A stretch of 64,000 nucleotides of DNA from a virus (taxonomy: Duplodnaviria; Caudoviricetes): the IMG/VR virus record IMGVR_UViG_3300031555_001437; one strand, written 5' to 3'. The notes beneath the pieces are model-generated. The model was not told the origin of the DNA, did no database searches, and saw only the letters and a program-made list of their open reading frames with translations. Made by a program: the position numbers and the translations under genes. This document shows positions 12,590 through 50,785 of this stretch, piece after piece. Position 1 is the first letter of the stretch; every line of letters begins with the position of its first letter.

Positions 12590-13270
12590 TTGAATGGTGA
12601 TTTTTAACTATTTCTAGAGGTCAACCACCTTAACCTTGTTGTCTGCGCCAACAGACAACGAAAGGACTTTATATGACGAACATTGACGCGCCCAACAACC
12701 GCTAATGATAAGTAGCGATACGGTATTTTTAGATGCTCCGCAGCCTCAAATAATGTGAACCCGACCTTTTATGTGTCGTATATCGGGTAACGACTATCCC
12801 TGTTGTTGGCTTTTGCCCTTGTCGGGCTAACTTGTAGTTCAATATGGTTCACCGCTCCATATCAGTTCTCTTATGAACTTCTCAATCTGCGACTTTCATC
12901 TCATATTTATTACCCGCATTCGATGTTGTCTGTTCTTATGAATGATTGAGTTCTGCACTTTCAACCGCCAGTCGTTTGCGGTTTACGCTACTTTTAAAGC
13001 CGTGCGATTGCAACATACTTGTCTAACGTTGGGCCGTTCATCTCACTCCGTTACCACAGCTCTTATCACCTATCCGTTTATCAGCTTACGTATTTTTTAA
13101 TTATTAACCACTTCTCACAAAACGGCGTCGGCTTCGTGGCACCCAACTCTTGATTAGGCGCAAGAGAACGCCACTTTGGATGGGTTTTAGGTCTCCAGCC
13201 CGACTTTGAACTTTCTTGTTCTGGCAACCCAAGAGAAGGCTACGGGGAACATCCCCGTTCGACGCCAGGA
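12590..13270 (-). ncRNA. Large (~680 nt) structured ncRNA, GOLLD/ROOL-like candidate
   Basis: ORF-free stretch inside the tRNA cluster with many helices (GGCGTCG/CGACGCC, ACGGGGA/TCCCCGT, GTTGTCTG/CAGACAAC, GGTGGTT/AATCACC) and a pseudoknot. Confidence 0.7.
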
Positions 13271-13273
13271 GCT

Positions 13274-13388
13274 AGTCACTTTTAGATTGGATTCGAACCA
13301 ATGTCTCCAGTTTATCCGACTGGTGTTCTACCTCTAAACTACATCTCTAATTATTTGCAGAGACAACATGATATTGCTGTAAGTGACT
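13274..13388 (-). ncRNA. Circularly permuted tRNA-like RNA closed by an ACAGCAA stem (Y-RNA-like)
   Basis: AGTCACTT-ACAGCAA...TGTCTCT/AGAGATG hairpin, D arm, CCAGT-CGGATAA-ACTGG, ATTGG-TTCGAAT-CCAAT, then AAGTGACT. Confidence 0.75.
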
Positions 13389-13999: not shown

Positions 14000-14818
14000 T
14001 CAATCTTCAATTACTAATACATTTACCTTTTTGCTATACGCAGTACATGCGTCAATCGCAATAACACGTTCATCAACAAACGGCTCGAAAGATTTACTCC
14101 AATCTGCATGGGTCGGCTTCGGAAACTCTTTATACATTAGTTTCAAGTGCGACCAACCCCACGAACAGTGCCAGTGTCCACACACGATTTGCTTTGACGG
14201 CTCATACACATCGTACCGCCATGCAAGTTCCATGCCGTTAAACCATCTTGCGGTATTCCACTCAGACGCGTGAACTTCTCTCCAATTCGGATTATACTGA
14301 TACGTTCTGCCTTTACGATAGTGCGCTGGCATGTCTGTATTTGTCTCACAAGGAATGCTGCCATGGACAAACACATAATGCTCAGTCTCGTAATAATCAA
14401 TACTTGCAGGAATGAGAGTTTTGCAGAAATCAGAGTTTAAAACCTTAGAGACGAACTTATTTCGATTTCTCAGAGCCTCGGTCTCTGTCATGCCGCTAAG
14501 TTGCAGCGCACTGCTCCAAGTGCCGTTGCTGACATGATGAGAATAACCCCAGGCAATAGCATCTGCGTACTTGTCGAAACCATTAAGCATATCAAGCAAC
14601 AAATCTTCGTGATTGCCACGTATGAAAATTAGCTCGTCGCGGTTATACAAGTCCATCATGAAGTCTTGCATCTCCACAGACTCTAGACCCCTGTCAAGAG
14701 CATCGCCACAAATGATTAACTTCTTGGGGTCAGAGTCCGTGAAAAAGCCTTTATCGTCAAGAGCTTGTTTGAACTCACTGTAAAAGGAATGTACGTCTGA
14801 CGTTACATAATATTTCAT
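14000..14818 (-). CDS. Calcineurin-like metallophosphoesterase
   Basis: SDVH, GDALDRG, RGNHED, FVHG and GHWH motifs. Confidence 0.9.
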   Translation of the reverse strand: MKYYVTSDVHSFYSEFKQALDDKGFFTDSDPKKLIICGDALDRGLESVEMQDFMMDLYNRDELIFIRGNHEDLLLDMLNGFDKYADAIAWGYSHHVSNGTWSSALQLSGMTETEALRNRNKFVSKVLNSDFCKTLIPASIDYYETEHYVFVHGSIPCETNTDMPAHYRKGRTYQYNPNWREVHASEWNTARWFNGMELAWRYDVYEPSKQIVCGHWHCSWGWSHLKLMYKEFPKPTHADWSKSFEPFVDERVIAIDACTAYSKKVNVLVIED

Positions 14819-16350
14819 CTAATTGCCTCTTCTACTGCTCTATATCTTTCCGAATTCAGTTGCTCGAGCAAACACTCATACGGGTCAAGTTTACCCGACA
14901 TAACCATCTTCGCAACGTTTACAGAGAAACCACTGACAAGGGCTACTCCCAAATCATTCTGCTTAACAGGAATTGCGCCAGTTCTAGAATTAACATTCCA
15001 GAACACGAGCCTTGGGAGTTGATATCCATGTGCTGCGTATTTTTGAGCGATAGCGTCAAAGAGAGTGGCGGTCGGGCGAGAGCCTCTGCTGGAGTACCAA
15101 CTGGAAGACGTAGCTGGACCCATCGTTGCACATGAATCGAACTCCATGTCCGAAATGACCAGCACATTCGCAGGCATATCCCTCTGAGACATGTTGTTGT
15201 TAATAGCAGTCTGCAAAATCAAATCGAACGTTGCTTCGATATTAGTGTTTGCAACCTCGTTATGTCTACGTGCGATGGCAATCTTCTCTCTCAGAGTAGA
15301 AGCGCCGCTAAAATCAACCAGCTGAGGTCTGCTGCTAAAAGTAATGTACTTATCCTTGAACTCGCCAGAAGATCTCTCTGCGAAGTAAATTGCAAGTGCG
15401 TTAGCAACCTCAAGAGCAGTTACACCAGTGTTGCCGCCAACAGTACACTGCATACTACCTGAACCATCTGCAACTACGATTGTATTACCGCAACCCTGTA
15501 CAGTGTCTGGAAGAGCCTTCCACATAGCCTCGATACCTTTGTCTACACTGCGGCTATAAGCGTAAGAATGAACTAAGTCATGAGGAAACAGAACACTTGC
15601 ATTGATCTTTGCCTCGCCCTTTTCAAGCGCACCAAGATATGCTCTGCGTCTATCCTCGTCGTTGCGTAAGAACGCACCGTTGTAAATCAAGTTTGCACGG
15701 CTAGGAACGGCCTCATAGTCAATATCTCCCCACTGCTTTGCAGACATCTTTCGCTCTACAACATCAATGTAGTTGCGCATCTTAGACAGCATCTTACGAT
15801 ACTCCTTAGAAGACATACCAAGACCGTTGCGAATAATTTTTGCAAGACGCTTGGTTTCTGCGGAAGACGCGTTTTCGGACGGAGCCCATTTGCTACAGAG
15901 GGAAATTGACTCCTTGTTCTTCATCGCTTGCTTGTCTGCTGCAAGCTGTTCACGAATATGGACAATAATATCATCTTTAAGGCTAGTATCAAGCAGACAC
16001 CACAGGTCATCGTATCTGCCATACTCACTTACAAGTCTAATAACTGCCTTGATAATCTCTGGCTTCTCAGTAGCCAGATGCTTCATAACAATTCTGAACA
16101 GGCGTCTCTCGCCAATTCCCTGTCTTGCATCGCGGCAATAGAACAGCCACTTGATTGCGGTTACCTTGTCCTCATAATAAGCATCCATAAACTTGTTGAT
16201 GATTTGCTGCTCAGAAGCGCCTCTTAGAGAGGCCACAGCGAAATTCAAATCGAGCAACTTCTTACCAGTAGTTCGCCACGCTACCGCGCCGTTCTCTGTC
16301 AAAACCTTTTCATTGTTAAGTTCGTTTTTGATTGCGTTCATGAAACTCAT
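14815..16350 (-). CDS. DUF2828-family Ro60/TROVE-like helical protein with C-terminal vWA domain
   Basis: TENGA, RDAR.G.GERR.FR, EYGRYDDL, KWAPS, VPS.A, DGSGSM MIDAS motif, TFS, SDMEFD, FWNV, LVSGFS; RBS before MSFMNA. Confidence 0.85.
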   Translation of the reverse strand: MSFMNAIKNELNNEKVLTENGAVAWRTTGKKLLDLNFAVASLRGASEQQIINKFMDAYYEDKVTAIKWLFYCRDARQGIGERRLFRIVMKHLATEKPEIIKAVIRLVSEYGRYDDLWCLLDTSLKDDIIVHIREQLAADKQAMKNKESISLCSKWAPSENASSAETKRLAKIIRNGLGMSSKEYRKMLSKMRNYIDVVERKMSAKQWGDIDYEAVPSRANLIYNGAFLRNDEDRRRAYLGALEKGEAKINASVLFPHDLVHSYAYSRSVDKGIEAMWKALPDTVQGCGNTIVVADGSGSMQCTVGGNTGVTALEVANALAIYFAERSSGEFKDKYITFSSRPQLVDFSGASTLREKIAIARRHNEVANTNIEATFDLILQTAINNNMSQRDMPANVLVISDMEFDSCATMGPATSSSWYSSRGSRPTATLFDAIAQKYAAHGYQLPRLVFWNVNSRTGAIPVKQNDLGVALVSGFSVNVAKMVMSGKLDPYECLLEQLNSERYRAVEEAIR

Positions 16351-16388
16351 TTTGTTTTCCTCCAAAATTTCATTTATAATAACAATCC

Positions 16389-16744
16389 AAGACACATTAG
16401 GTTATATAGATTAAAAGTCTATTCCATTAAGATTGCTGTATGTGTCTTAAGATATAGTTGACATGCGAGACACCATAATGATATGCATACACGACATTTA
16501 CTGTCATGCAATTTTAAGCATGCCATTCGTCTTCAATATAGAGTGAACGGCAAGTTCCATTTACTATTATTTTCATCATTAAAATTGCTGTCGGTGTCTC
16601 TTTATCGAGATGCTATTAAACTATAAAATCATCATTCTTTAATTTCTTAGTAAATAACATTGCTGTTAGCATCTCTTTTTTAAACAAGGCACAATATAAT
16701 TTCATTCCCAGCAGAAATATGTATTAAGTTGCTGTGTGTGCCTT
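16389..16744 (-). repeat. Array of four stem-ACAGCAA-variable loop-stem small RNA units
   Basis: Units 16389-16448, 16467-16600, 16607-16675 and 16686-16744; each has an 8-9 bp covarying closing stem with ACAGCAA just 3' of the 5' strand. Confidence 0.8.
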
Positions 16745-16749
16745 TAAAG

Positions 16750-16876
16750 TGGTACGCGGACGATGAATCGAACATCGAACATTTAGTCCCCATCTTTCTG
16801 TGAAAATTGCGGTTAAGGTTTATGTCTAAACCCATTCACAATACTACTAACGCTCTACCAGTTGAGCTATCCGCGC
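16750..16876 (-). ncRNA. tRNA-like RNA with a ~58-nt module replacing the anticodon loop
   Basis: GCGCGGA/TCCGCGT-ACCA acceptor, canonical D and T arms, TTAGT/ACTAA stem enclosing GGTTTA-GACA-TAAACC-TTAACCGCAA. Confidence 0.78.
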
Positions 16877-16884
16877 ATATTAAG

Positions 16885-17002
16885 TGGGGGCTGCAAGACT
16901 CGAACTTGCGACCTCGGAGTTACCAGCTCAAATGTAAAATTGCAGTTTAAGATTTTGTCAAACCTCAATTATACGCGCTCTATCCAACTGAGCTAAGCCC
17001 CC
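16885..17002 (-). ncRNA. tRNA-like RNA (GGT anticodon) with a 44-nt insertion in the anticodon stem
   Basis: GGGGGCT/AGCCCCC acceptor; CG[insert]GAG-CTGGTAA-CTCCG; insert GAGGTTT-GACA-AAATCTT-AAACTGCAA; no encoded CCA. Confidence 0.78.
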
Positions 17003-17044: not shown

Positions 17045-17073
17045 ATTATAACATAATTTACTTAATTTGTCAA
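17045..17073 (-). promoter_or_regulatory. Sigma-A promoter driving the small-RNA / DUF2828 / tRNA island
   Basis: TTGACA-17bp-TATAAT with extended -10 TG; repeat variant ACACGACAGAATGA just downstream. Confidence 0.82.
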
Positions 17074-29663: not shown

Positions 29664-31004
29664 TTATCCCATTTTTGCTGCCGCTTGTAATAAAACATTG
29701 TGTTCATTTTGGATTTCTCCATCAATTACCATCTGCAATAACGTGCTCAATGTATGCCCTAATTTTTTCCCAGTTTCATATCCGATACTAATTAAATCAT
29801 TACCGTTAATCGCTAAATCTTTAGCGGAAAAACACTCGCCCTCTTGAAGCACATCTTCAAGTAGTTGCTCAATCACATCTACTTTTTCAATTCTTTCTGC
29901 ACCGTATTCTTTCTTTTGCCCTTTGATATCTGCTCTACGTACATTCAAAAGTCTTCTAAATTGTTCTTCTCCAATTTTATTGAGCCATCTTTTAATGTAC
30001 TTACGTCCGACTTCAAATGTGGCATCGTGATAATGAACCAATCCTGCTACGTCGTGTCGAGTTTTATTATCAAATCTCAGGCCTAGCATGATAGCGTCGG
30101 CTATCTCAGCACTTACTCTACCATGTCCTTTAAAATGCCTTGTCCCATCCTCGTCGTCTTGGTAACAATGCGGCTTTCCAAAGTCATGGAACAAAATAGC
30201 AAGTCGAGTTGTTAAGTCGCAAGACTCGTCATAACTTAATGCTTTTGCAGTATGGGTGAACACATCATAATCATGATACGGGTTGTTCTGCTGAAAATCT
30301 ACGATGTCACACATTTCGGGTATAATTTGGCAAAACACTCCGACATATAAACGTAGAACAAACGGGAATCTGTTGCATATTACCATTTTACACAACTCAC
30401 TATTGACGCGCTCTTTCGAAATATTCTTTAATAACTGTGCGTTTGAAATAATTGCGTACTTCGTGTGTTCCTCTATTTCAAAGTCCATCTGACAAGAAAA
30501 TCTCAGCGCCCGCAATACTCTCAATGCGTCTTCTTGAAATCTATCATTTGCATTTCCAACGCATCGAATTTTCATATCTTTGATATCATCTAAGCCACCA
30601 AACGGGTCTATTAATCCCTCTTCATCATTGTAGGCAATAGCGTTAATAGTGAAGTCTCGTCTACTTAAGTCTTCTTCCAGGTTTGAAGTAAACGTTACTG
30701 TATCTGGTCGACGATTGTCAGAATAATCTCCGTCAATTCGAAATGTGGTTACTTCGTAAGACTCATCACCAACAACTACAGTTAGAGTGCCGTGCTGCAA
30801 TCCAGTTTCAATTATTCTTTTATCATTAAAAATATTCAGCATCTCGCTCGGAGTGGCGGACGTGCAAATATCCCAGTCATTAGGAGTTCGACCAAGAATA
30901 CTATCTCTTACACATCCTCCAACTATATATGCAGCGTGTCCATGGCTTTGTAACATATGAATTAAATCATTTGCATGGTTTGGAATGTTAATATTAAATT
31001 TCAC
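29664..31004 (-). CDS. cca: CCA-adding enzyme / tRNA nucleotidyltransferase with HD domain
   Basis: VGGCVRD, DWDICT, RRDFTINA, EDALRVLRA, HT...LFHDFGK. Confidence 0.93.
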   Translation of the reverse strand: MKFNINIPNHANDLIHMLQSHGHAAYIVGGCVRDSILGRTPNDWDICTSATPSEMLNIFNDKRIIETGLQHGTLTVVVGDESYEVTTFRIDGDYSDNRRPDTVTFTSNLEEDLSRRDFTINAIAYNDEEGLIDPFGGLDDIKDMKIRCVGNANDRFQEDALRVLRALRFSCQMDFEIEEHTKYAIISNAQLLKNISKERVNSELCKMVICNRFPFVLRLYVGVFCQIIPEMCDIVDFQQNNPYHDYDVFTHTAKALSYDESCDLTTRLAILFHDFGKPHCYQDDEDGTRHFKGHGRVSAEIADAIMLGLRFDNKTRHDVAGLVHYHDATFEVGRKYIKRWLNKIGEEQFRRLLNVRRADIKGQKKEYGAERIEKVDVIEQLLEDVLQEGECFSAKDLAINGNDLISIGYETGKKLGHTLSTLLQMVIDGEIQNEHNVLLQAAAKMG

Positions 31005-32022
31005 CCTTTACCACCCTTTCATTTACGCTTGCAACAAACTCATTGATTGCTTTATAATTAGGCCCATCTGGAAGATTTGTATTTTTCTTTGCGTATTCAA
31101 GTCGCTTTTCACATTCATCAACCATTTCATAAAACTCTGCAATTGGCTGCCTATTATCGTCAAGATATTTACCGTTACGAATATCCATCAATAAGTCATG
31201 ATCTGCATCTCGATATGTAATAATTTGCTCTTTTTCAAGGATATCAAAACACATCATGTAAAGACGTATGAGGTGCATCATGTGCTTACCCAATTTATCA
31301 TGACTGATTGCTTTTTCGTTTCTGCTACCAATTTTGCCATACGACTTGACTATTTGCTGCATTTCAGCCCACATACCAGCATAATCCCTCAAAGGATAAT
31401 GGTTCAAATGCGCGTCCATAAAGATCTCGGTATCATATCCGTCTTGCACCGCCTTATCAATATATAATTTGATAGCATCATCTGGCATAGTTAAGTATCT
31501 GTCTTTGAACACATACTGGGCGTTTTCAATTGTTTTATAAATATGCTCTTCGTTTTGTGCTTGACCAACGAGTCGATTTGATTTGTTTTCAAGCCTTCTA
31601 AGCTGCTGATTAGCATATCCGCCAAAAGAATGAACTGCTCTCTTAGAAAGGAACAGATGTGCGTTGTCAAGAAGTTCGCGCCCAACAGGAGATATATAAA
31701 GATAGTGCTCTGGTTTATTGCCGAGCATCTCAATTGTGTTTGGATTGACATTGCTCAGCAGAGAGACCAACTTGTTAAAAGCATAAATAGTGGTGTCTGT
31801 TTCTTCGTTGACAAACTGCTCAAAATTCTCGTTAGTCAAAATCTGCATCTTACTATTCAGAGCACACCCACGAATATCCAAGTCACTATTCTCGTTGTTT
31901 GTTCCATAAGCGTGACTACCGCCAAGAGTTAAAAGAATGATATTCCGTCCAAGATTTGCATCAGTTTTTAAAAACCCATATTCATCCGAATTTACTTTCT
32001 GTCTAATCTGCTCAATGTTCAT
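30994..32022 (-). CDS. RlaP-like Pol-beta superfamily nucleotidyltransferase
   Basis: GGSHAYGT...SDLDIRG, NPN.IE.L, F.GYA..QL, K..MHL.RL and IRNG. Confidence 0.82.
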   Translation of the reverse strand: MNIEQIRQKVNSDEYGFLKTDANLGRNIILLTLGGSHAYGTNNENSDLDIRGCALNSKMQILTNENFEQFVNEETDTTIYAFNKLVSLLSNVNPNTIEMLGNKPEHYLYISPVGRELLDNAHLFLSKRAVHSFGGYANQQLRRLENKSNRLVGQAQNEEHIYKTIENAQYVFKDRYLTMPDDAIKLYIDKAVQDGYDTEIFMDAHLNHYPLRDYAGMWAEMQQIVKSYGKIGSRNEKAISHDKLGKHMMHLIRLYMMCFDILEKEQIITYRDADHDLLMDIRNGKYLDDNRQPIAEFYEMVDECEKRLEYAKKNTNLPDGPNYKAINEFVASVNERVVKGEI

Positions 32023-32415: not shown

Positions 32416-33375
32416 TTAATCATTTTGTTGTGTGGCGAGTTGTGCGAGGGCTTGTTTTTCGGTGATCAGGCCGAGTGTGATAGCTCCAGGGATGATGGTG
32501 CCATCCTTGAGGGTTTGATTGTAAAGATAATGCCAAATGAAGCCGCCAGCCGTTTTGTGTTTCCCTTGACAGCATCTAATTATTCCTGATTTTAAAATAT
32601 CAAGTGCATCCGATGCTCCTTGTATCCAACTCCAAACCTTAATTAATTCATCGTTACCAGTGCATTGCACAATAGGCTTAGATAGTTTTAATCGATTATT
32701 TTCTTTCCATTCTGGCGTAGCGTTTCTGGCTGCAATTGCCTCTCTTTGCTTTTGCTTCGCCTCCTCTGTGTGCCGATGGTTGTGAAATCCTGCAGTTTCT
32801 TTTTGATTGGCAAGGCTCATATTCTTTCTGTGTTCATCTGTAAAAACCATTCCAACGTGAGACCTAGACATTTTTTCTTTAGTTTCTTCGCTATGATGTT
32901 TACCTTTCATAGTGCCAGGTTTACCAATTAAACTATTGCTGATTTTCTCCTTGTGCTCAACAGATAATACCTTCCCTCTATGTGCGTTGCCAATCTTATC
33001 TCTAGTTTCTTGCTTGACTTCTCTACCAGCAGACCCGTCTCCGCCGTCAGTTTCATTATACCCATATGCTGGTTTTTTGTATCTTCTGCAATTTGTTTTA
33101 AATAAGGCAATTAACATTTTTTCCATATGTTTTGCTTCGTCGTGGTCTAAATTAACAGCCCAAATAATATGCTCAAAACCATCCCATCCGTATTTTTGAA
33201 TAGCATTATAAAAAACTGGTTGAGAATTCTCTTGATATTTTTTACCATTTGCGCCCCATCGATTGAACGGATTACCCTTAGCAATTCCTATATATGCCTT
33301 ATTATTCGTAATACATTTGTGTATATAGATACTCCACTTGTTTTTGTTAAAAACTATATTTTCAATTGCATTCAT
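32416..33375 (-). CDS. GIY-YIG homing endonuclease with NUMOD3 repeats
   Basis: SIY...YIG, GYN.T.GGDG, repeated H.EE.K.K.S, C-terminal helix-turn-helix-like I..CC.GK.KTAGGF.W. Confidence 0.88.
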   Translation of the reverse strand: MNAIENIVFNKNKWSIYIHKCITNNKAYIGIAKGNPFNRWGANGKKYQENSQPVFYNAIQKYGWDGFEHIIWAVNLDHDEAKHMEKMLIALFKTNCRRYKKPAYGYNETDGGDGSAGREVKQETRDKIGNAHRGKVLSVEHKEKISNSLIGKPGTMKGKHHSEETKEKMSRSHVGMVFTDEHRKNMSLANQKETAGFHNHRHTEEAKQKQREAIAARNATPEWKENNRLKLSKPIVQCTGNDELIKVWSWIQGASDALDILKSGIIRCCQGKHKTAGGFIWHYLYNQTLKDGTIIPGAITLGLITEKQALAQLATQQND

Positions 33376-49344: not shown

Positions 49345-50508
49345 TTACGCGTTTGCTTTGAAGTTAAAAATTGGAATAAGTCTATCAAGTATATCCACCG
49401 TGGGCTCTATGCATTCCATGATTTCAAGATAATCCTTGTATACAAACGGAGCCTCGTCAAGAGTGCTTGCGTTGATACAAGAGCTGAAAATTCCTTCCAT
49501 CTGTTTTGCGTATTCGTCTACGGTGAACAACTCTTTTGCCTCAGAACGAGAGTATAATCTTCCTGCTCCATGAGGTGCGGAATAATTCCAGTCTGGATTC
49601 CCTTTGCCGCGACATAAAAGAAGCCCGTCACGCATATTGAGTGGAATGACGAGCAACTGGTCTTTCTGAGCAGAAATTGCACCTTTTCTCAGGTACATAT
49701 TCTCAGTGTCTATATAGTTGTGAATTGAGTTGATATGTTCAAGCACACGACCTCCCATGTGCTTCGTGATTGCTTTGAGCATTGCCATGCGATTGTCGTT
49801 TGCAAAACGCTGCATAACTGCAACATCATGCAAATAGTCAGCCATGTCAGCGCCAGTCAAATAGCACAAATCTTTTTGGATGTGGAATTTGTGTTCCTTG
49901 AGCCACTGCTCTCGTTGAGTTGGCTCAATAGTCTTGATTTGCTCCATAAGAAAAATATGATTGTGCTCTTTTACTCTTTGCTCCGCGAGTTGCTGATAGT
50001 ATGCGGCGACTTTAAATCCGATGTTGCGGCTTCCGCTATGAACAGACAGCCACCCATCTTCGTACGCCTCGATGAAGTGATTACCGCCTCCAAGAGTTCC
50101 TAACGCAGTCATTGCTCGCGTCTTCGAATCCTTGTCGAGATATCCCCAGCAACGAAGCTCCTCAAAATTCCACGGTTGAAATTCTGAGTGCGTGTCCATT
50201 CCAAACGGAATATACTTTCTGATAACTGCATCCAATTTATCAAGGCGGTTCTTGAAATCAATATCGGTCTTGACAAGGTCAACGCCACATCCAATATCTA
50301 CGCCTACCAAGTTCGGGCATACCTTATCGGTGATTTTCATCGTCGTGCCAATTACACAACCTGCACCAGCGTGGCAGTCTGGCATGATACGAATATGTGC
50401 ATTTTCACCAAGGACAGAATTTGCCATCTCGATGATTTGCGCGATTGCTTCTTGCTCAACGGTTTTTGCATACACATATATGTCGCCGTATTTAGTGTTA
50501 TAAACCAT
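49345..50508 (-). CDS. rtcB: RtcB RNA 3'-phosphate/5'-OH ligase
   Basis: MPDCHAG, VGVDIGCG, LGTLGGGNHFIE, HSGSR, HNY, RKGA, SAPHGAGR and DEAP..YK. Confidence 0.95.
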   Translation of the reverse strand: MVYNTKYGDIYVYAKTVEQEAIAQIIEMANSVLGENAHIRIMPDCHAGAGCVIGTTMKITDKVCPNLVGVDIGCGVDLVKTDIDFKNRLDKLDAVIRKYIPFGMDTHSEFQPWNFEELRCWGYLDKDSKTRAMTALGTLGGGNHFIEAYEDGWLSVHSGSRNIGFKVAAYYQQLAEQRVKEHNHIFLMEQIKTIEPTQREQWLKEHKFHIQKDLCYLTGADMADYLHDVAVMQRFANDNRMAMLKAITKHMGGRVLEHINSIHNYIDTENMYLRKGAISAQKDQLLVIPLNMRDGLLLCRGKGNPDWNYSAPHGAGRLYSRSEAKELFTVDEYAKQMEGIFSSCINASTLDEAPFVYKDYLEIMECIEPTVDILDRLIPIFNFKANA

Positions 50509-50509
50509 T

Positions 50510-50785
50510 TTAAACCACCTTTCTTGCGTTACAATGATAATCAATTTCTTGCAATTTAAGTTGTATCTTTTCGATAATTGGCATTGCCTCTTTGGGGATT
50601 TTGTGATTTTTGTTATAATAAACAATTTCGTCTGCCATAATATCAAAAACATTGTCACCAAAATCACCCTTTGTCCAGATATAAACCGAGTACGACTTGA
50701 TTTTATCAATGTCATAATACGGATCTATCTCATGTGCAACTGCAACAAGTTCATCGTACAATTTCAAATATTTATCTTTATCCAT
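50510..50785 (-). CDS. Hypothetical protein
   Basis: ORF in the packed operon. Confidence 0.5.
   Translation of the reverse strand: MDKDKYLKLYDELVAVAHEIDPYYDIDKIKSYSVYIWTKGDFGDNVFDIMADEIVYYNKNHKIPKEAMPIIEKIQLKLQEIDYHCNARKVV

What the first reader, a model, noticed from the sequence alone, without database searches (positions are those of the whole stretch)
16750..17002. Two tandem tRNA bodies with the same GACA-hairpin/ACnGCAA module grafted into the anticodon arm
Both RNAs have canonical acceptor, D and T arms. RNA 1 (16750-16876) replaces the anticodon loop with TGTGAA..GGTTTA-GACA-TAAACC-TTAACCGCAA..TTCACA. RNA 2 (16885-17002) has a 44-nt insert (GAGGTTT-GACA-AAATCTT-AAACTGCAA) that splits the anticodon stem CG|GAG. 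Removing it restores CGGAG-CTGGTAA-CTCCG, an intact GGT anticodon arm. The module is the inside-out version of the ACAGCAA stems, with the tRNA body taking the place of the cargo. Inference: these are either protein-tethered tRNA mimics or tiny protein-dependent introns that the phage RtcB could ligate after cleavage. RNA 2 lacks an encoded CCA, and the phage carries a CCA-adding enzyme.
Basis: partly seen in the sequence, partly recalled or inferred. Interest (0 to 1): 0.85.

Follow-up and report, generated by a model that had tools for sequence, protein, structure and literature searches.

The report
tRNA-shaped partner RNAs of Ro60-like protein
Two phage genes look like complete tRNAs but carry, inside the anticodon arm, the short "handle" that accompanies a Ro60-like ring protein encoded just downstream, so they are most likely unspliced tRNA mimics that dock this protein rather than tRNAs with a new kind of intron.

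Summary
On the minus strand, RNA2 (17002-16885) and RNA1 (16876-16750) have full acceptor, D and T arms. Each carries a 7-bp hairpin, 2 nt and AC(N)GCAA in the anticodon arm. It is the inside-out form of the "stem + ACAGCAA" units that fill the gap to a DUF2828 gene, whose model matches Ro60.

A covariance model finds about 170 such RNAs in 80 related phage contigs, nearly all just upstream of that gene. It also finds them in cultured phages (Aeromonas Aeh1, KVP40-like vibriophages), where they are annotated as odd tRNAs. Helices and the tertiary 15:48 pair covary, so these are not decayed pseudo-tRNAs.

There are two classes:
- **Class S (RNA2):** the insert splits the anticodon stem after nt 28 or 29 and an intact anticodon loop remains, mostly Asn(GUU), then Lys and Thr.
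- **Class L (RNA1):** the loop is replaced.

Splicing is disfavoured. No bulge-helix-bulge or closing helix is present, and linker lengths vary. Ser and Leu anticodons sit on short-arm bodies, and discriminators vary. Some loops have 8 nt, and canonical same-anticodon tRNAs often co-occur.

Best reading: Y-RNA-like tRNA mimics, possibly decoys for anticodon nucleases (inferred). This scan reached the same reading on other genomes. I found no paper describing these RNAs.

The parts
17045..17073 (-). Consensus sigma-70-type promoter (TTGACA, 17 nt, TATAAT, with TG before the -10). It lies about 43 nt upstream of RNA2 and reads into the whole RNA array and the Ro60-like gene.
   Evidence: 12 of 12 hexamer matches. 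No terminator-like site on the minus strand between it and the gene.
16885..17002 (-). RNA2, a class S tRNA-shaped RNA of 118 nt. It has a complete acceptor, D and T arm. The anticodon stem is split after nt 28 by the handle, and the anticodon loop CUGGUAA (GGU) is intact. The discriminator is A and no CCA is encoded.
   Evidence: RF00005, 45.7 bits; model R1, 109.9 bits; parsed as CG|GAG-CUGGUAA-CUCCG.
16930..16973 (-). The 44-nt insert of RNA2: 5' linker UAUAAUU, helix, AA, ACUGCAA, then 3' linker UUUUACAUUU.
   Evidence: Read. Homologous inserts.
16949..16966 (-). Handle helix of RNA2: GAGGUUU-GACA-AAAUCUU (7 bp, tetraloop).
   Evidence: The helix covaries across 110 distinct homologues, with 94% of cells paired and all 7 pairs showing changes on both sides.
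16940..16946 (-). Handle motif ACUGCAA of RNA2.
   Evidence: Columns AC.GCAA are invariant in the seed alignment.
16915..16929 (-). Lower anticodon arm of RNA2: GAG-CUGGUAA-CUCCG. The last CG pairs with C27 G28 at 16974-16975.
   Evidence: The split stem covaries in 48 distinct class S RNAs.
16750..16876 (-). RNA1, a class L tRNA-shaped RNA of 127 nt including an encoded ACCA. It has a complete acceptor, D and T arm and a 5-bp anticodon stem UUAGU/ACUAA. The 7-nt loop is replaced by 58 nt that hold the handle.
   Evidence: RF00005, 47.9 bits; R1, 113.2 bits. Its orthologues in the closest relatives are split-stem forms.
16816..16833 (-). Handle helix of RNA1: GGGUUUA-GACA-UAAACCU.
16807..16813 (-). 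Handle motif ACCGCAA of RNA1.
16396..16749 (-). Four units of the ordinary topology: closing-stem 5' arm, N, ACAGCAA, variable cargo, AAU, closing-stem 3' arm. ACAGCAA lies at 16729-16735, 16660-16666, 16585-16591 and 16433-16439.
14815..16395 (-). Ro60-like protein gene (DUF2828 + DUF7788/vWA), the presumed binder of the handle.
   Evidence: Pfam; the top 13 PDB fold matches are all Ro60/TROVE proteins, E 6e-07 to 7e-04, aligned over the full length.
14000..14818 (-). Calcineurin-like metallophosphoesterase gene. Its start overlaps the stop of the Ro60-like gene.
13274..13388 (-). A seventh handle RNA in the downstream tRNA cluster. Its closing stem + ACAGCAA encloses a circularly permuted tRNA-like body (YrlA-like topology).
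   Evidence: partial tRNA match 13285-13342; ACAGCAA at 13374-13380; fold.
29664..31004 (-). CCA-adding enzyme gene (context).
   Evidence: PolyA_pol head, 139 bits, plus tRNA_NucTran2_2 and HD.
30994..32022 (-). RlaP, an RNA-repair-pathway nucleotidyltransferase gene (context).
   Evidence: PF10127, 60 bits.
49345..50715 (-). RtcB RNA ligase gene (context).
   Evidence: PF01139, 194.6 bits.

Best explanation
RNA1 and RNA2 are stable, unspliced, tRNA-shaped partner RNAs of the phage's Ro60-like (DUF2828/vWA) protein. They are functional analogues of Y RNAs.

- **Transcription and processing (inferred).** One strong promoter transcribes RNA2, RNA1, four ordinary handle RNAs and the protein gene. 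Because each has a real tRNA body, RNA2 and RNA1 are cut out by the tRNA-processing enzymes. RNA2 would receive its CCA from the phage's CCA-adding enzyme.
- **Protein binding (inferred from co-occurrence).** The handle is a 6-8 bp helix with G.G/C.C at its base, flanked 5' by AAU and 3' by (N)N-ACNGCAA. It docks the Ro60-like ring.
- **What is displayed (shown in sequence).** RNA1 (class L) displays a tRNA elbow and acceptor end. RNA2 (class S) displays a whole tRNA, including an intact anticodon stem-loop.
- **Likely purpose (inference).** The particle presents tRNA look-alikes to enzymes that act on tRNA. The most plausible targets are host anticodon-arm nucleases, with the RNA acting as decoy or trap. 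Alternatively it recruits the phage's RNA-repair enzymes such as RtcB. It does not decode on the ribosome.
For: 1. **Real and conserved.** Model R1 finds about 170 RNAs of 105-145 nt at 48-113 bits in 80 IMG/VR loci. Nearly all lie within 1.2 kb upstream of the DUF2828 gene on the same strand.
2. **Selection for the tRNA fold and the handle.**
   - 97% of pair cells are paired, against 67% in shuffles, and every helix shows compensatory changes.
   - The tertiary 15:48 pair is G:C in 82, A:U in 25 and A:C in 3. U8, A14, GG in the D loop and a UUCRANY T loop occur in 110 of 110.
3. **The handle follows the protein.** Stem + ACAGCAA units flank DUF2828 genes in Listeria, Salmonella FelixO1, Bacillus, Mycobacterium, Staphylococcus and Campylobacter phages. 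The protein model matches only Ro60/TROVE structures at E<1e-3.
4. **Against decoding or splicing.**
   - No pairing between the linkers (mean duplex energy 0.33 against 0.42 kcal/mol for shuffles).
   - Linker lengths range from 4-14 nt and 7-13 nt.
   - The split falls after nt 28 in 40 RNAs and after nt 29 in 8.
   - Class L has no anticodon loop.
   - GCU, UGA and GAG anticodons sit on bodies with 5-nt variable loops.
   - GUU-type RNAs have discriminator A7/G7/U4/C11 and mostly no CCA. Canonical phage tRNA-Asn mostly has G73 and an encoded CCA.
   - At least 6 RNAs have 8-nt loops.
   - Orthologous vibriophage RNAs carry the loops CUUCAAA, AUUCUAA, AUUCAUAA and AUAGGGA.
5. **Redundancy.**
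   - Aeh1 has a separate tRNA-Asn(GUU) with G73.
   - In gut-phage loci with at least 12 canonical tRNAs, 7 of 8 GUU-type RNAs co-occur with a canonical tRNA-Asn.
   - L002 has canonical UGU and UGG tRNAs beside class S RNAs with the same anticodons.
6. **Link to nucleases.**
   - Displayed anticodons are GUU 29, UUU 5, UGU 4, GCU 3 and singles, out of 48.
   - PARIS AriB cleaves tRNA-Lys(UUU), Thr(UGU) and Asn(GUU) at 40|41 in the anticodon stem (bioRxiv 10.1101/2025.02.04.636281). That site faces the insertion point.
   - The phage also carries RtcB, RlaP, a CCA-adding enzyme and a Band-7 gene.
Against: - There are no expression, size or binding data. Protein binding rests on co-occurrence only.
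- Removing the insert of RNA2 restores a perfect arm, and the split stem covaries. A spliced tRNA would predict the same.
- The window holds no other tRNA-Thr, and the whole genome is not held.
- The Vibrio phage 1.081.O tRNA cluster has no other tRNA-Asn.
- Only 19 of 63 class S RNAs have a same-anticodon canonical tRNA within +-10 kb.
- RNA2 folded alone prefers another hairpin by 13 kcal/mol (-40.7 against -27.6).
- The nuclease link rests on one E. coli system, and the hosts here are unknown. Close pairs show no excess of anticodon substitutions (6 against 4.7 expected).
Confidence: 0.66

Rival explanations
1. They are genuine tRNA genes with a new class of short intron. A phage or host endonuclease, perhaps guided by the Ro60-like protein bound to the handle, removes the insert. 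RtcB then joins the halves to give decoding tRNAs (RNA2 would become tRNA-Thr GGU).
For: - Removing the insert restores a 5-bp stem and a 7-nt loop with U33 and R37 in 48 of 110 distinct RNAs, against 0.5% of shuffles.
- The lower stem covaries across the insert.
- The phage encodes RtcB and a CCA-adding enzyme.
- No other tRNA-Thr lies in the window.
- The Vibrio phage cluster has no other tRNA-Asn, and annotation pipelines call the RNA tRNA-Asn.
Against: - No bulge-helix-bulge and no helix at the junctions.
- Junction-to-handle distances vary.
- Inserts of 44-60 nt have no group I core, and no Rfam intron family matches.
- Class L, including RNA1, would not give a 7-nt loop.
- Class II anticodons sit on class I bodies, discriminators are inconsistent, some loops have 8 nt, and one loop reads a stop codon (UCA).
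- The D480 orthologue of the vibriophage 'tRNA-Asn' has ACGUUG in place of AUGUUA.
- Canonical duplicates exist in Aeh1 and in 7 of 8 tRNA-rich gut-phage loci.
- The same handle sits on cargo that is clearly not a tRNA.
Confidence: 0.14
2. The tRNA body is only a processing and stability scaffold, as in engineered tRNA scaffolds. The functional part is the handle with its protein, and the anticodon remnants are leftovers of the tRNA genes into which the handle was recombined.
For: - Almost the same insert sits in different bodies: window RNA2 and L001 3522-3640.
- Helix sequences are shuffled between units: the RNA1 helix recurs in L004_2 with RNA2-like flanks.
- Anticodon loops drift in the vibriophages.
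- RNA1 has lost the loop that its orthologues keep.
Against: - The loop CUGUUAA is kept on at least 12 different acceptor stems and in Aeh1.
- The split stem is kept by compensatory changes.
- The ordinary-topology units need no tRNA body yet exist beside these in the same operon.
- The elbow tertiary pair covaries. That fits a scaffold too, but it also fits recognition of the body.
Confidence: 0.13
3. They are decayed pseudo-tRNAs hit by a repeated intergenic element, with no function.
For: ARAGORN does not call them. Public records annotate some as pseudo or 'OTHER' tRNAs.
Against: - They are conserved in position and structure across proteins of 49-74% identity, and in Aeromonas and Vibrio T4-like phages.
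- Covariation is strong in every helix and in the 15:48 pair.
- A consensus promoter lies directly upstream.
Confidence: 0.02

Closest known systems
YrlA-type bacterial and phage Y RNAs bound by Ro60/Rsr (Rfam RF02553; Chen et al. 2014, PMC4201824; Thermus phage phiLo Ro60 with Yrl1/2, PMC12135203)
   Same: - A small RNA encoded on the same strand within a few kb of a Ro60-fold ring protein with a vWA domain.
- One module binds the protein and the other mimics tRNA, with D and T arms and an acceptor stem.
- Found beside RtcB-type repair genes.
- M. smegmatis YrlA is cut by RNase P and receives CCA.
   Different: - The protein is DUF2828, not a TROVE family member by sequence (no phmmer match to PDB).
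- The motif is AC(N)GCAA next to a helix, not GNCGAAN0-1G / CGAA.
- RF02553 reaches only 22 bits against a cut-off of 69, and that match spans two RNAs.
- Here the tRNA is not permuted. The RNA ends lie at the acceptor stem, the handle is a capped hairpin inside the anticodon arm, and class S keeps a complete anticodon stem-loop.
The ordinary 'closing stem + ACAGCAA + cargo' RNAs next to DUF2828 genes (this window 16396-16749 and 13274-13388; Listeria, FelixO1, Bacillus, Mycobacterium, Staphylococcus and Campylobacter phages)
   Same: Same helix base (G.G/C.C), same 1-2 nt spacer, same ACAGCAA followed by NUUU, same AAU on the other strand, and the same neighbouring gene.
   Different: The connectivity is permuted. 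The far end of the helix is closed by a loop, and the 'cargo' is a whole tRNA that holds the RNA termini.
Archaeal tRNA introns at non-canonical positions (bulge-helix-bulge, EndA, RtcB ligation); from general knowledge
   Same: A short insert inside the anticodon stem of a tRNA gene. RtcB is encoded in the same genome. Removing the insert restores the arm.
   Different: No bulge-helix-bulge can be drawn and there is no pairing at the junctions. No splicing endonuclease was identified. Class L leaves no proper loop.
Phage tRNAs that escape or neutralise anticodon-arm nucleases (T5 tRNA-Lys/Thr/Asn against PARIS AriB; PMC11464382, bioRxiv 10.1101/2025.02.04.636281)
   Same: Phage-encoded tRNA-shaped RNAs centred on the same anticodon set (Asn GUU, Lys UUU, Thr UGU), in phages that also carry RNA-repair genes.
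   Different: The T5 tRNAs are ordinary decoding tRNAs with point changes in the anticodon stem. Here the arm carries a 40-60-nt protein handle, so decoding is unlikely.
   Same: A short covarying stem joins the 5' and 3' ends, with a conserved 11-nt unpaired motif right after the 5' arm and a variable remainder. The paper's invariant positions T3, C6, C9, A10 and A11 fit nnUAACAGCAA.
   Different: They are eukaryotic and have the ordinary topology only. The paper's text does not print the motif letters, so identity is not shown here. No Rfam Class I match appeared in the window.

Membership tests
tRNA (RF00005), as a decoding tRNA | Acceptor stem of 7 bp, D arm, and T arm with a UUCRANY loop | tested here: met
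   In 110 of 110 homologues: U8, A14, GG and the T loop. Acceptor cells are 98.8% paired.
tRNA (RF00005), as a decoding tRNA | Contiguous 5-bp anticodon stem closing a 7-nt loop | tested here: not met
   In RNA2 the 5' strand is interrupted by 44 nt. In RNA1 the stem closes 58 nt. ARAGORN rejects both.
tRNA (RF00005), as a decoding tRNA | Identity elements that agree with the anticodon (for example G73 for Asn, a long variable arm for Ser and Leu) | tested here: not met
   This was tested on the family, not on RNA2 itself. GUU forms have discriminator A7/G7/U4/C11. GCU, UGA and GAG forms have 5-nt variable loops.
YrlA / Y RNA (RF02553) | Score at or above the Rfam gathering cut-off | tested here: not met
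   22.2 bits against 69, for a match that runs from inside RNA2 to inside RNA1.
YrlA / Y RNA (RF02553) | Ro60-binding motif GNCGAAN0-1G near the 5' end (PMC4201824) | tested here: not met
   The conserved motif here is AC(N)GCAA.
YrlA / Y RNA (RF02553) | Encoded within about 4 kb of a Ro60 orthologue on the same strand | tested here: met
   The RNAs lie 355-607 nt upstream of a gene whose model matches Ro60 structures. The same arrangement holds in 80 loci.
YrlA / Y RNA (RF02553) | tRNA-like domain with the RNA termini in the protein-binding stem (permuted tRNA) | tested here: not met
   The termini are at the acceptor stem and the handle is an internal hairpin. The unit at 13274-13388 does have the YrlA topology.
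YrlA / Y RNA (RF02553) | Physical binding to the ring protein | not testable with these tools
   This needs RIP, EMSA or a structure.
Bulge-helix-bulge tRNA intron | Two 3-nt bulges separated by a 4-bp helix formed across the exon-intron junctions | tested here: not met
   The 5' exon end GCGCG cannot pair with the insert's 3' end ACAUUU. There is no linker-to-linker pairing above shuffles in 47 class S RNAs.
Group I intron in a tRNA gene | Catalytic core of 200 nt or more, inserted in the anticodon loop | tested here: not met
   The inserts are 44-60 nt and mostly in the stem. No Rfam intron match even at E up to 10.

The most novel reading that the evidence does not exclude
Many phages load a Ro60-like ring with an exchangeable set of tRNA and anticodon-arm look-alikes. 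The class S RNAs are purpose-built baits for host anticodon-arm nucleases of the PARIS/PrrC/colicin type.

- The handle sits on the strand opposite the 40|41 cleavage site.
- The displayed loops (Asn, then Lys and Thr) mirror the nuclease's target set.
- The particle would sequester the nuclease, or hand cleaved RNA to RtcB.

This would be a new RNA-based counter-defence principle. It would also give the long-sought function of bacterial-type Y RNAs with tRNA domains.
Probability: 0.28. Interest if true: 0.85.

Novelty: new variant of a known kind. Interest (0 to 1): 0.7.

Why it matters
Ro60 and its Y RNAs are conserved from bacteria to humans, yet nobody knows what the tRNA-like part of bacterial Y RNAs is for.

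These RNAs show an extreme form of the same idea. They are complete tRNAs, some with a working-looking anticodon arm, fitted with a handle for a second and much more widespread family of Ro60-shaped proteins. At least 8000 relatives of that protein were found, in 706 cultured phage records.

The RNAs occur in phages that can be grown in the laboratory (Aeromonas Aeh1, KVP40-like vibriophages). Public records list them there as tRNA-Val, tRNA-Asn, tRNA-Phe or 'other'. Two things follow:
- The question can be tested directly.
- Published phage tRNA counts and codon-usage arguments include RNAs that probably do not decode.

If the decoy reading holds, it links Ro60-type particles to the current arms race over tRNA cleavage.

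Tried and rejected
- **DNA similarity.** blastn of the region against 50,697 phage records found no match.
- **Own genome.** None is held, so the phage's full tRNA set could not be read.
- **YrlA membership.** Rejected on score and motif.
- **Closing helix or bulge-helix-bulge between the two linkers of the insert.** No signal over shuffles, apart from a conserved AUCA/UGAU in one subfamily.
- **Faster change at the anticodon than elsewhere among near-identical RNAs.** Not supported: 6 substitutions against 4.7 expected in 40 pairs. The striking L054 against L046 case (UCU against GUU) is an anecdote.
- **Clustering bodies by overall similarity to count anticodon switches.** Single linkage chained everything together, so it was uninformative. 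Grouping by identical acceptor stems was used instead.
- **Sequence search of the protein against PDB.** Nothing. Only the fold comparison shows the Ro60 likeness, from a model of moderate confidence (pLDDT 69, 12-row alignment).
- **Thermodynamic folding of RNA2 alone.** It does not reproduce the comparative structure. The alternative hairpin is not conserved in homologues.
- **The vibriophage 'tRNA-Asn' as an intron at the canonical 37/38 site.** Weakened by the D480 orthologue, which has C33 and G37.
- **Outer stem UGUGAA/UUCACA of RNA1.** Not conserved.
- **Literature searches.** Searches for DUF2828, for Ro-like/Y RNA/phage and for KVP40 tRNA found no paper describing these RNAs.
Full report
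**1. What is there**

The finding lies on the minus strand.

- **RNA2 (17002-16885, 118 nt).** It reads GGGGGCU-UA-GCUC-AGUUGGAUA-GAGC-G-CG, then a 44-nt insert, then GAG-CUGGUAA-CUCCG-AGGUC-GCAAG-UUCGAGU-CUUGC-AGCCCCC-A.
- **RNA1 (16876-16750, 127 nt).** It reads GCGCGGA-UA-GCUC-AACUGGUA-GAGC-G-UUAGU, then 58 nt, then ACUAA-AUGUU-CGAUG-UUCGAUU-CAUCG-UCCGCGU-A-CCA.

Rfam's tRNA model matches both end to end (45.7 and 47.9 bits) and skips 57-58 nt in the anticodon arm. ARAGORN does not call them.

Both inserts hold a 7-bp hairpin with a GACA loop, two bases, and ACUGCAA or ACCGCAA.

**2. Setting**

A 12-of-12 sigma-70-type promoter (17073-17045) precedes RNA2. No minus-strand terminator follows before the next gene.

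After RNA1 come four units built as closing-stem 5' arm, N, ACAGCAA, cargo, AAU, closing-stem 3' arm. Then comes a 526-aa DUF2828 + DUF7788/vWA gene, whose stop is overlapped by the start of a metallophosphoesterase gene. A tRNA cluster follows, and it holds a seventh unit.

The protein has no sequence match in PDB. Its AlphaFold model has a mean pLDDT of 69. The model's 13 best fold matches are all Ro60/TROVE proteins over their full length: Thermus phage phiLo, Xenopus, Deinococcus and human.

The window also encodes RtcB, a CCA-adding enzyme, RlaP and a Band-7 protein.

**3. The module is the permuted form of the ordinary units**

- In the ordinary units the order is ...CAC(N)-N-ACAGCAA...cargo...AAU-(N)GUG....
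- In the tRNA-shaped RNAs it is AAU-GYG...loop...CRC-(N)N-ACAGCAA-NUUU.

So the same helix and the same two flanking strands are present. The far end of the helix is capped by a loop, and the tRNA stands where the cargo was.

**4. Relatives**

The protein family is very large, with at least 8000 hits.

Eighty IMG/VR loci with proteins 49-74% identical were fetched. A covariance model was built from nine seed RNAs. It finds about 170 RNAs of 105-145 nt at 48-113 bits. Nearly all lie just upstream of the gene on its strand, usually two to five per phage.

On the 110 distinct top sequences:
- 97% of pair cells are paired, against 67% in shuffles.
- All four helices, the handle helix included, show changes on both sides. 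This alignment was fitted to the model, which favours pairing. The slid-partner control gives 39-46%.
- The tertiary 15:48 pair is G:C in 82, A:U in 25 and A:C in 3.
- U8, A14, the D-loop GG and a UUCRANY T loop are universal.

These RNAs are therefore selected to fold as L-shaped tRNAs. They are not decaying pseudogenes.

**5. Two classes**

A simple parse separates them.

- **Class S (48 distinct; RNA2).**
  - The insert splits the 5' strand of the anticodon stem after nt 28 (40 RNAs) or nt 29 (8 RNAs), typically at CG|UA.
  - The lower stem and a 7-nt loop with U33 and R37 remain.
  - Shuffled sequences pass this test in 0.5% of trials.
  - Base pairs 29:41 to 31:39 vary with compensation.
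- **Class L (RNA1).**
  - The 5-bp stem is kept and the loop is replaced.
  - RNA1's subfamily keeps U-GGGG-(A) next to the 3' strand.
  - Its positional orthologues in the two closest relatives are split-stem forms. RNA1 therefore looks like a derived version.

In class S the displayed anticodons are GUU 29, UUU 5, UGU 4 and GCU 3. GGU (RNA2), UCU, GAG, UGG, UAU, UGA and GUC occur once each.

**6. Intron or permanent handle**

*Points against splicing:*
- The two linkers do not pair, so there is no bulge-helix-bulge and nothing structural marks the junctions.
- Linker lengths vary.
- The inserts are far too small for group I introns, and no Rfam intron family matches.
- Class L would not yield a tRNA.
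- Ser and Leu anticodons sit on bodies with 5-nt variable loops.
- GUU forms have every discriminator base and mostly no CCA. Canonical phage tRNA-Asn in the same loci mostly has G73 and CCA.
- At least six RNAs have 8-nt loops.
- Identical acceptor stems carry different anticodons in different phages.
- Vibriophage orthologues carry the loops CUUCAAA, AUUCUAA, AUUCAUAA and AUAGGGA.
- Where the tRNA set is rich, a canonical tRNA-Asn is also present:
  - 7 of 8 gut-phage loci with at least 12 tRNAs;
  - Aeh1;
  - L002, for UGU and UGG.

*Points for splicing:*
- The restored arm is perfect.
- The split stem covaries.
- No tRNA-Thr lies elsewhere in this window.
- The Vibrio phage cluster has no other tRNA-Asn.

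I put splicing at about 0.14.

**7. Function**

*Shown:*
- tRNA shape.
- Conserved handle.
- Linkage to a Ro60-fold gene.
- An operon with a strong promoter.

*Inferred:*
- The protein binds the handle.
- The tRNA-processing enzymes release the RNAs.
- The particle presents tRNA look-alikes.

*The nuclease link:*
- The displayed set (Asn, Lys, Thr) is the target set of PARIS AriB.
- AriB cuts at 40|41 in the anticodon stem. That site is opposite the insertion point.
- With RtcB and other repair genes present, this makes a decoy or repair-platform role the most plausible.
- It remains an inference from one E. coli system.
- I found no excess of anticodon substitutions among close relatives.

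**8. Known or new**

Y RNAs with tRNA-like domains next to Ro60 are known (PMC4201824). Phage genomics papers mention ROT/TROVE proteins with a tRNA-like partner (PMC7824862).

Four things differ here:
- the protein family;
- the motif (AC(N)GCAA, not GNCGAAN0-1G);
- the unpermuted full tRNA;
- the retained anticodon arm.

I found no paper describing these RNAs.

In cultured phages they are annotated as tRNAs:
- Aeh1: a 122-nt "tRNA-Val CAC".
- Vibrio phage 1.081.O: "tRNA-Asn" and "tRNA-OTHER".
- phi-pp2: OTHER, Phe and Asn, of 113-123 nt.
- About 50 KVP40-like records hold them.

Earlier follow-ups in this scan reached the same reading on other genomes. This report adds:
- the class split;
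- the anticodon census and its match to AriB's targets;
- the tertiary-pair covariation;
- the identity-element and redundancy tests;
- the cultured-phage examples.

**9. Limits**

- Many contigs come from one metagenome and are related.
- Canonical tRNA sets were read only within +-10 kb.
- The comparative structure of RNA2 is 13 kcal/mol above its computed minimum.
- Nothing here shows expression or binding.

Noticed in passing
window 13274-13388 (-): A handle RNA of the ordinary topology whose cargo is a circularly permuted tRNA-like body: acceptor stem capped by a loop, D arm, anticodon arm, T arm. This is the YrlA-like layout, but Rfam YrlA does not match it.
   Followed up: partly
L002:973-1115 and L093:7421-7539 (Aeromonas phage Aeh1): Long tRNA matches (143 and 119 nt) without ACAGCAA. 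The anticodon region holds an extra T-arm-like hairpin (GGAGUUCAAAUCUCC; GAACGGUUCGAUUCCGUUG). This looks like a different kind of nested tRNA-like insert.
   Followed up: no
L002:81-166 (same in L003): Sub-threshold match to the Rfam RAGATH-27 RNA (47 bits, cut-off 76), at the edge of the tRNA region of a related phage.
   Followed up: no
L084:3164-3330 (Listeria phage LMLPA3, P100-like): Three stem + ACAGCAA units lie between a promoter-like site and the DUF2828 gene. A transcriptome paper on the P100-like phage CKA15 reports three very highly transcribed non-coding regions within 2 kb upstream of its Rsr-like gene (PMC12282133). These may be the same RNAs.
   Followed up: partly
L199:10644-11099 (Vibrio phage 1.081.O): A gene annotated as 'RNA ligase/cyclic nucleotide phosphodiesterase' lies about 600 nt from the two tRNA-shaped handle RNAs. 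This is another link to RNA repair.
   Followed up: no
window RNA2 insert 16930-16973 compared with L001:3550-3593; window RNA1 helix compared with L004:2431-2550: Almost the same insert sits in unrelated tRNA bodies, and helix sequences are exchanged between units. This suggests recombination of handles among the paralogues of an array.
   Followed up: partly
literature, PMC7919456: Dictyostelid Class I RNAs (a stem joining the ends plus an 11-nt motif after the 5' arm) have invariant positions T3, C6, C9, A10 and A11. These fit nnUAACAGCAA. DUF2828 proteins also occur in eukaryotes. This is a possible eukaryotic counterpart of the handle RNAs.
   Followed up: partly
window 32416-33375 (-): A GIY-YIG + NUMOD3 homing-endonuclease-like gene lies between the RlaP/CCA-adding genes and a DnaB-like helicase gene.
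   Followed up: no
window 12595-13267: A stretch of about 670 nt inside the tRNA operon has no ORF of note and no Rfam match at the gathering threshold.
   Followed up: no
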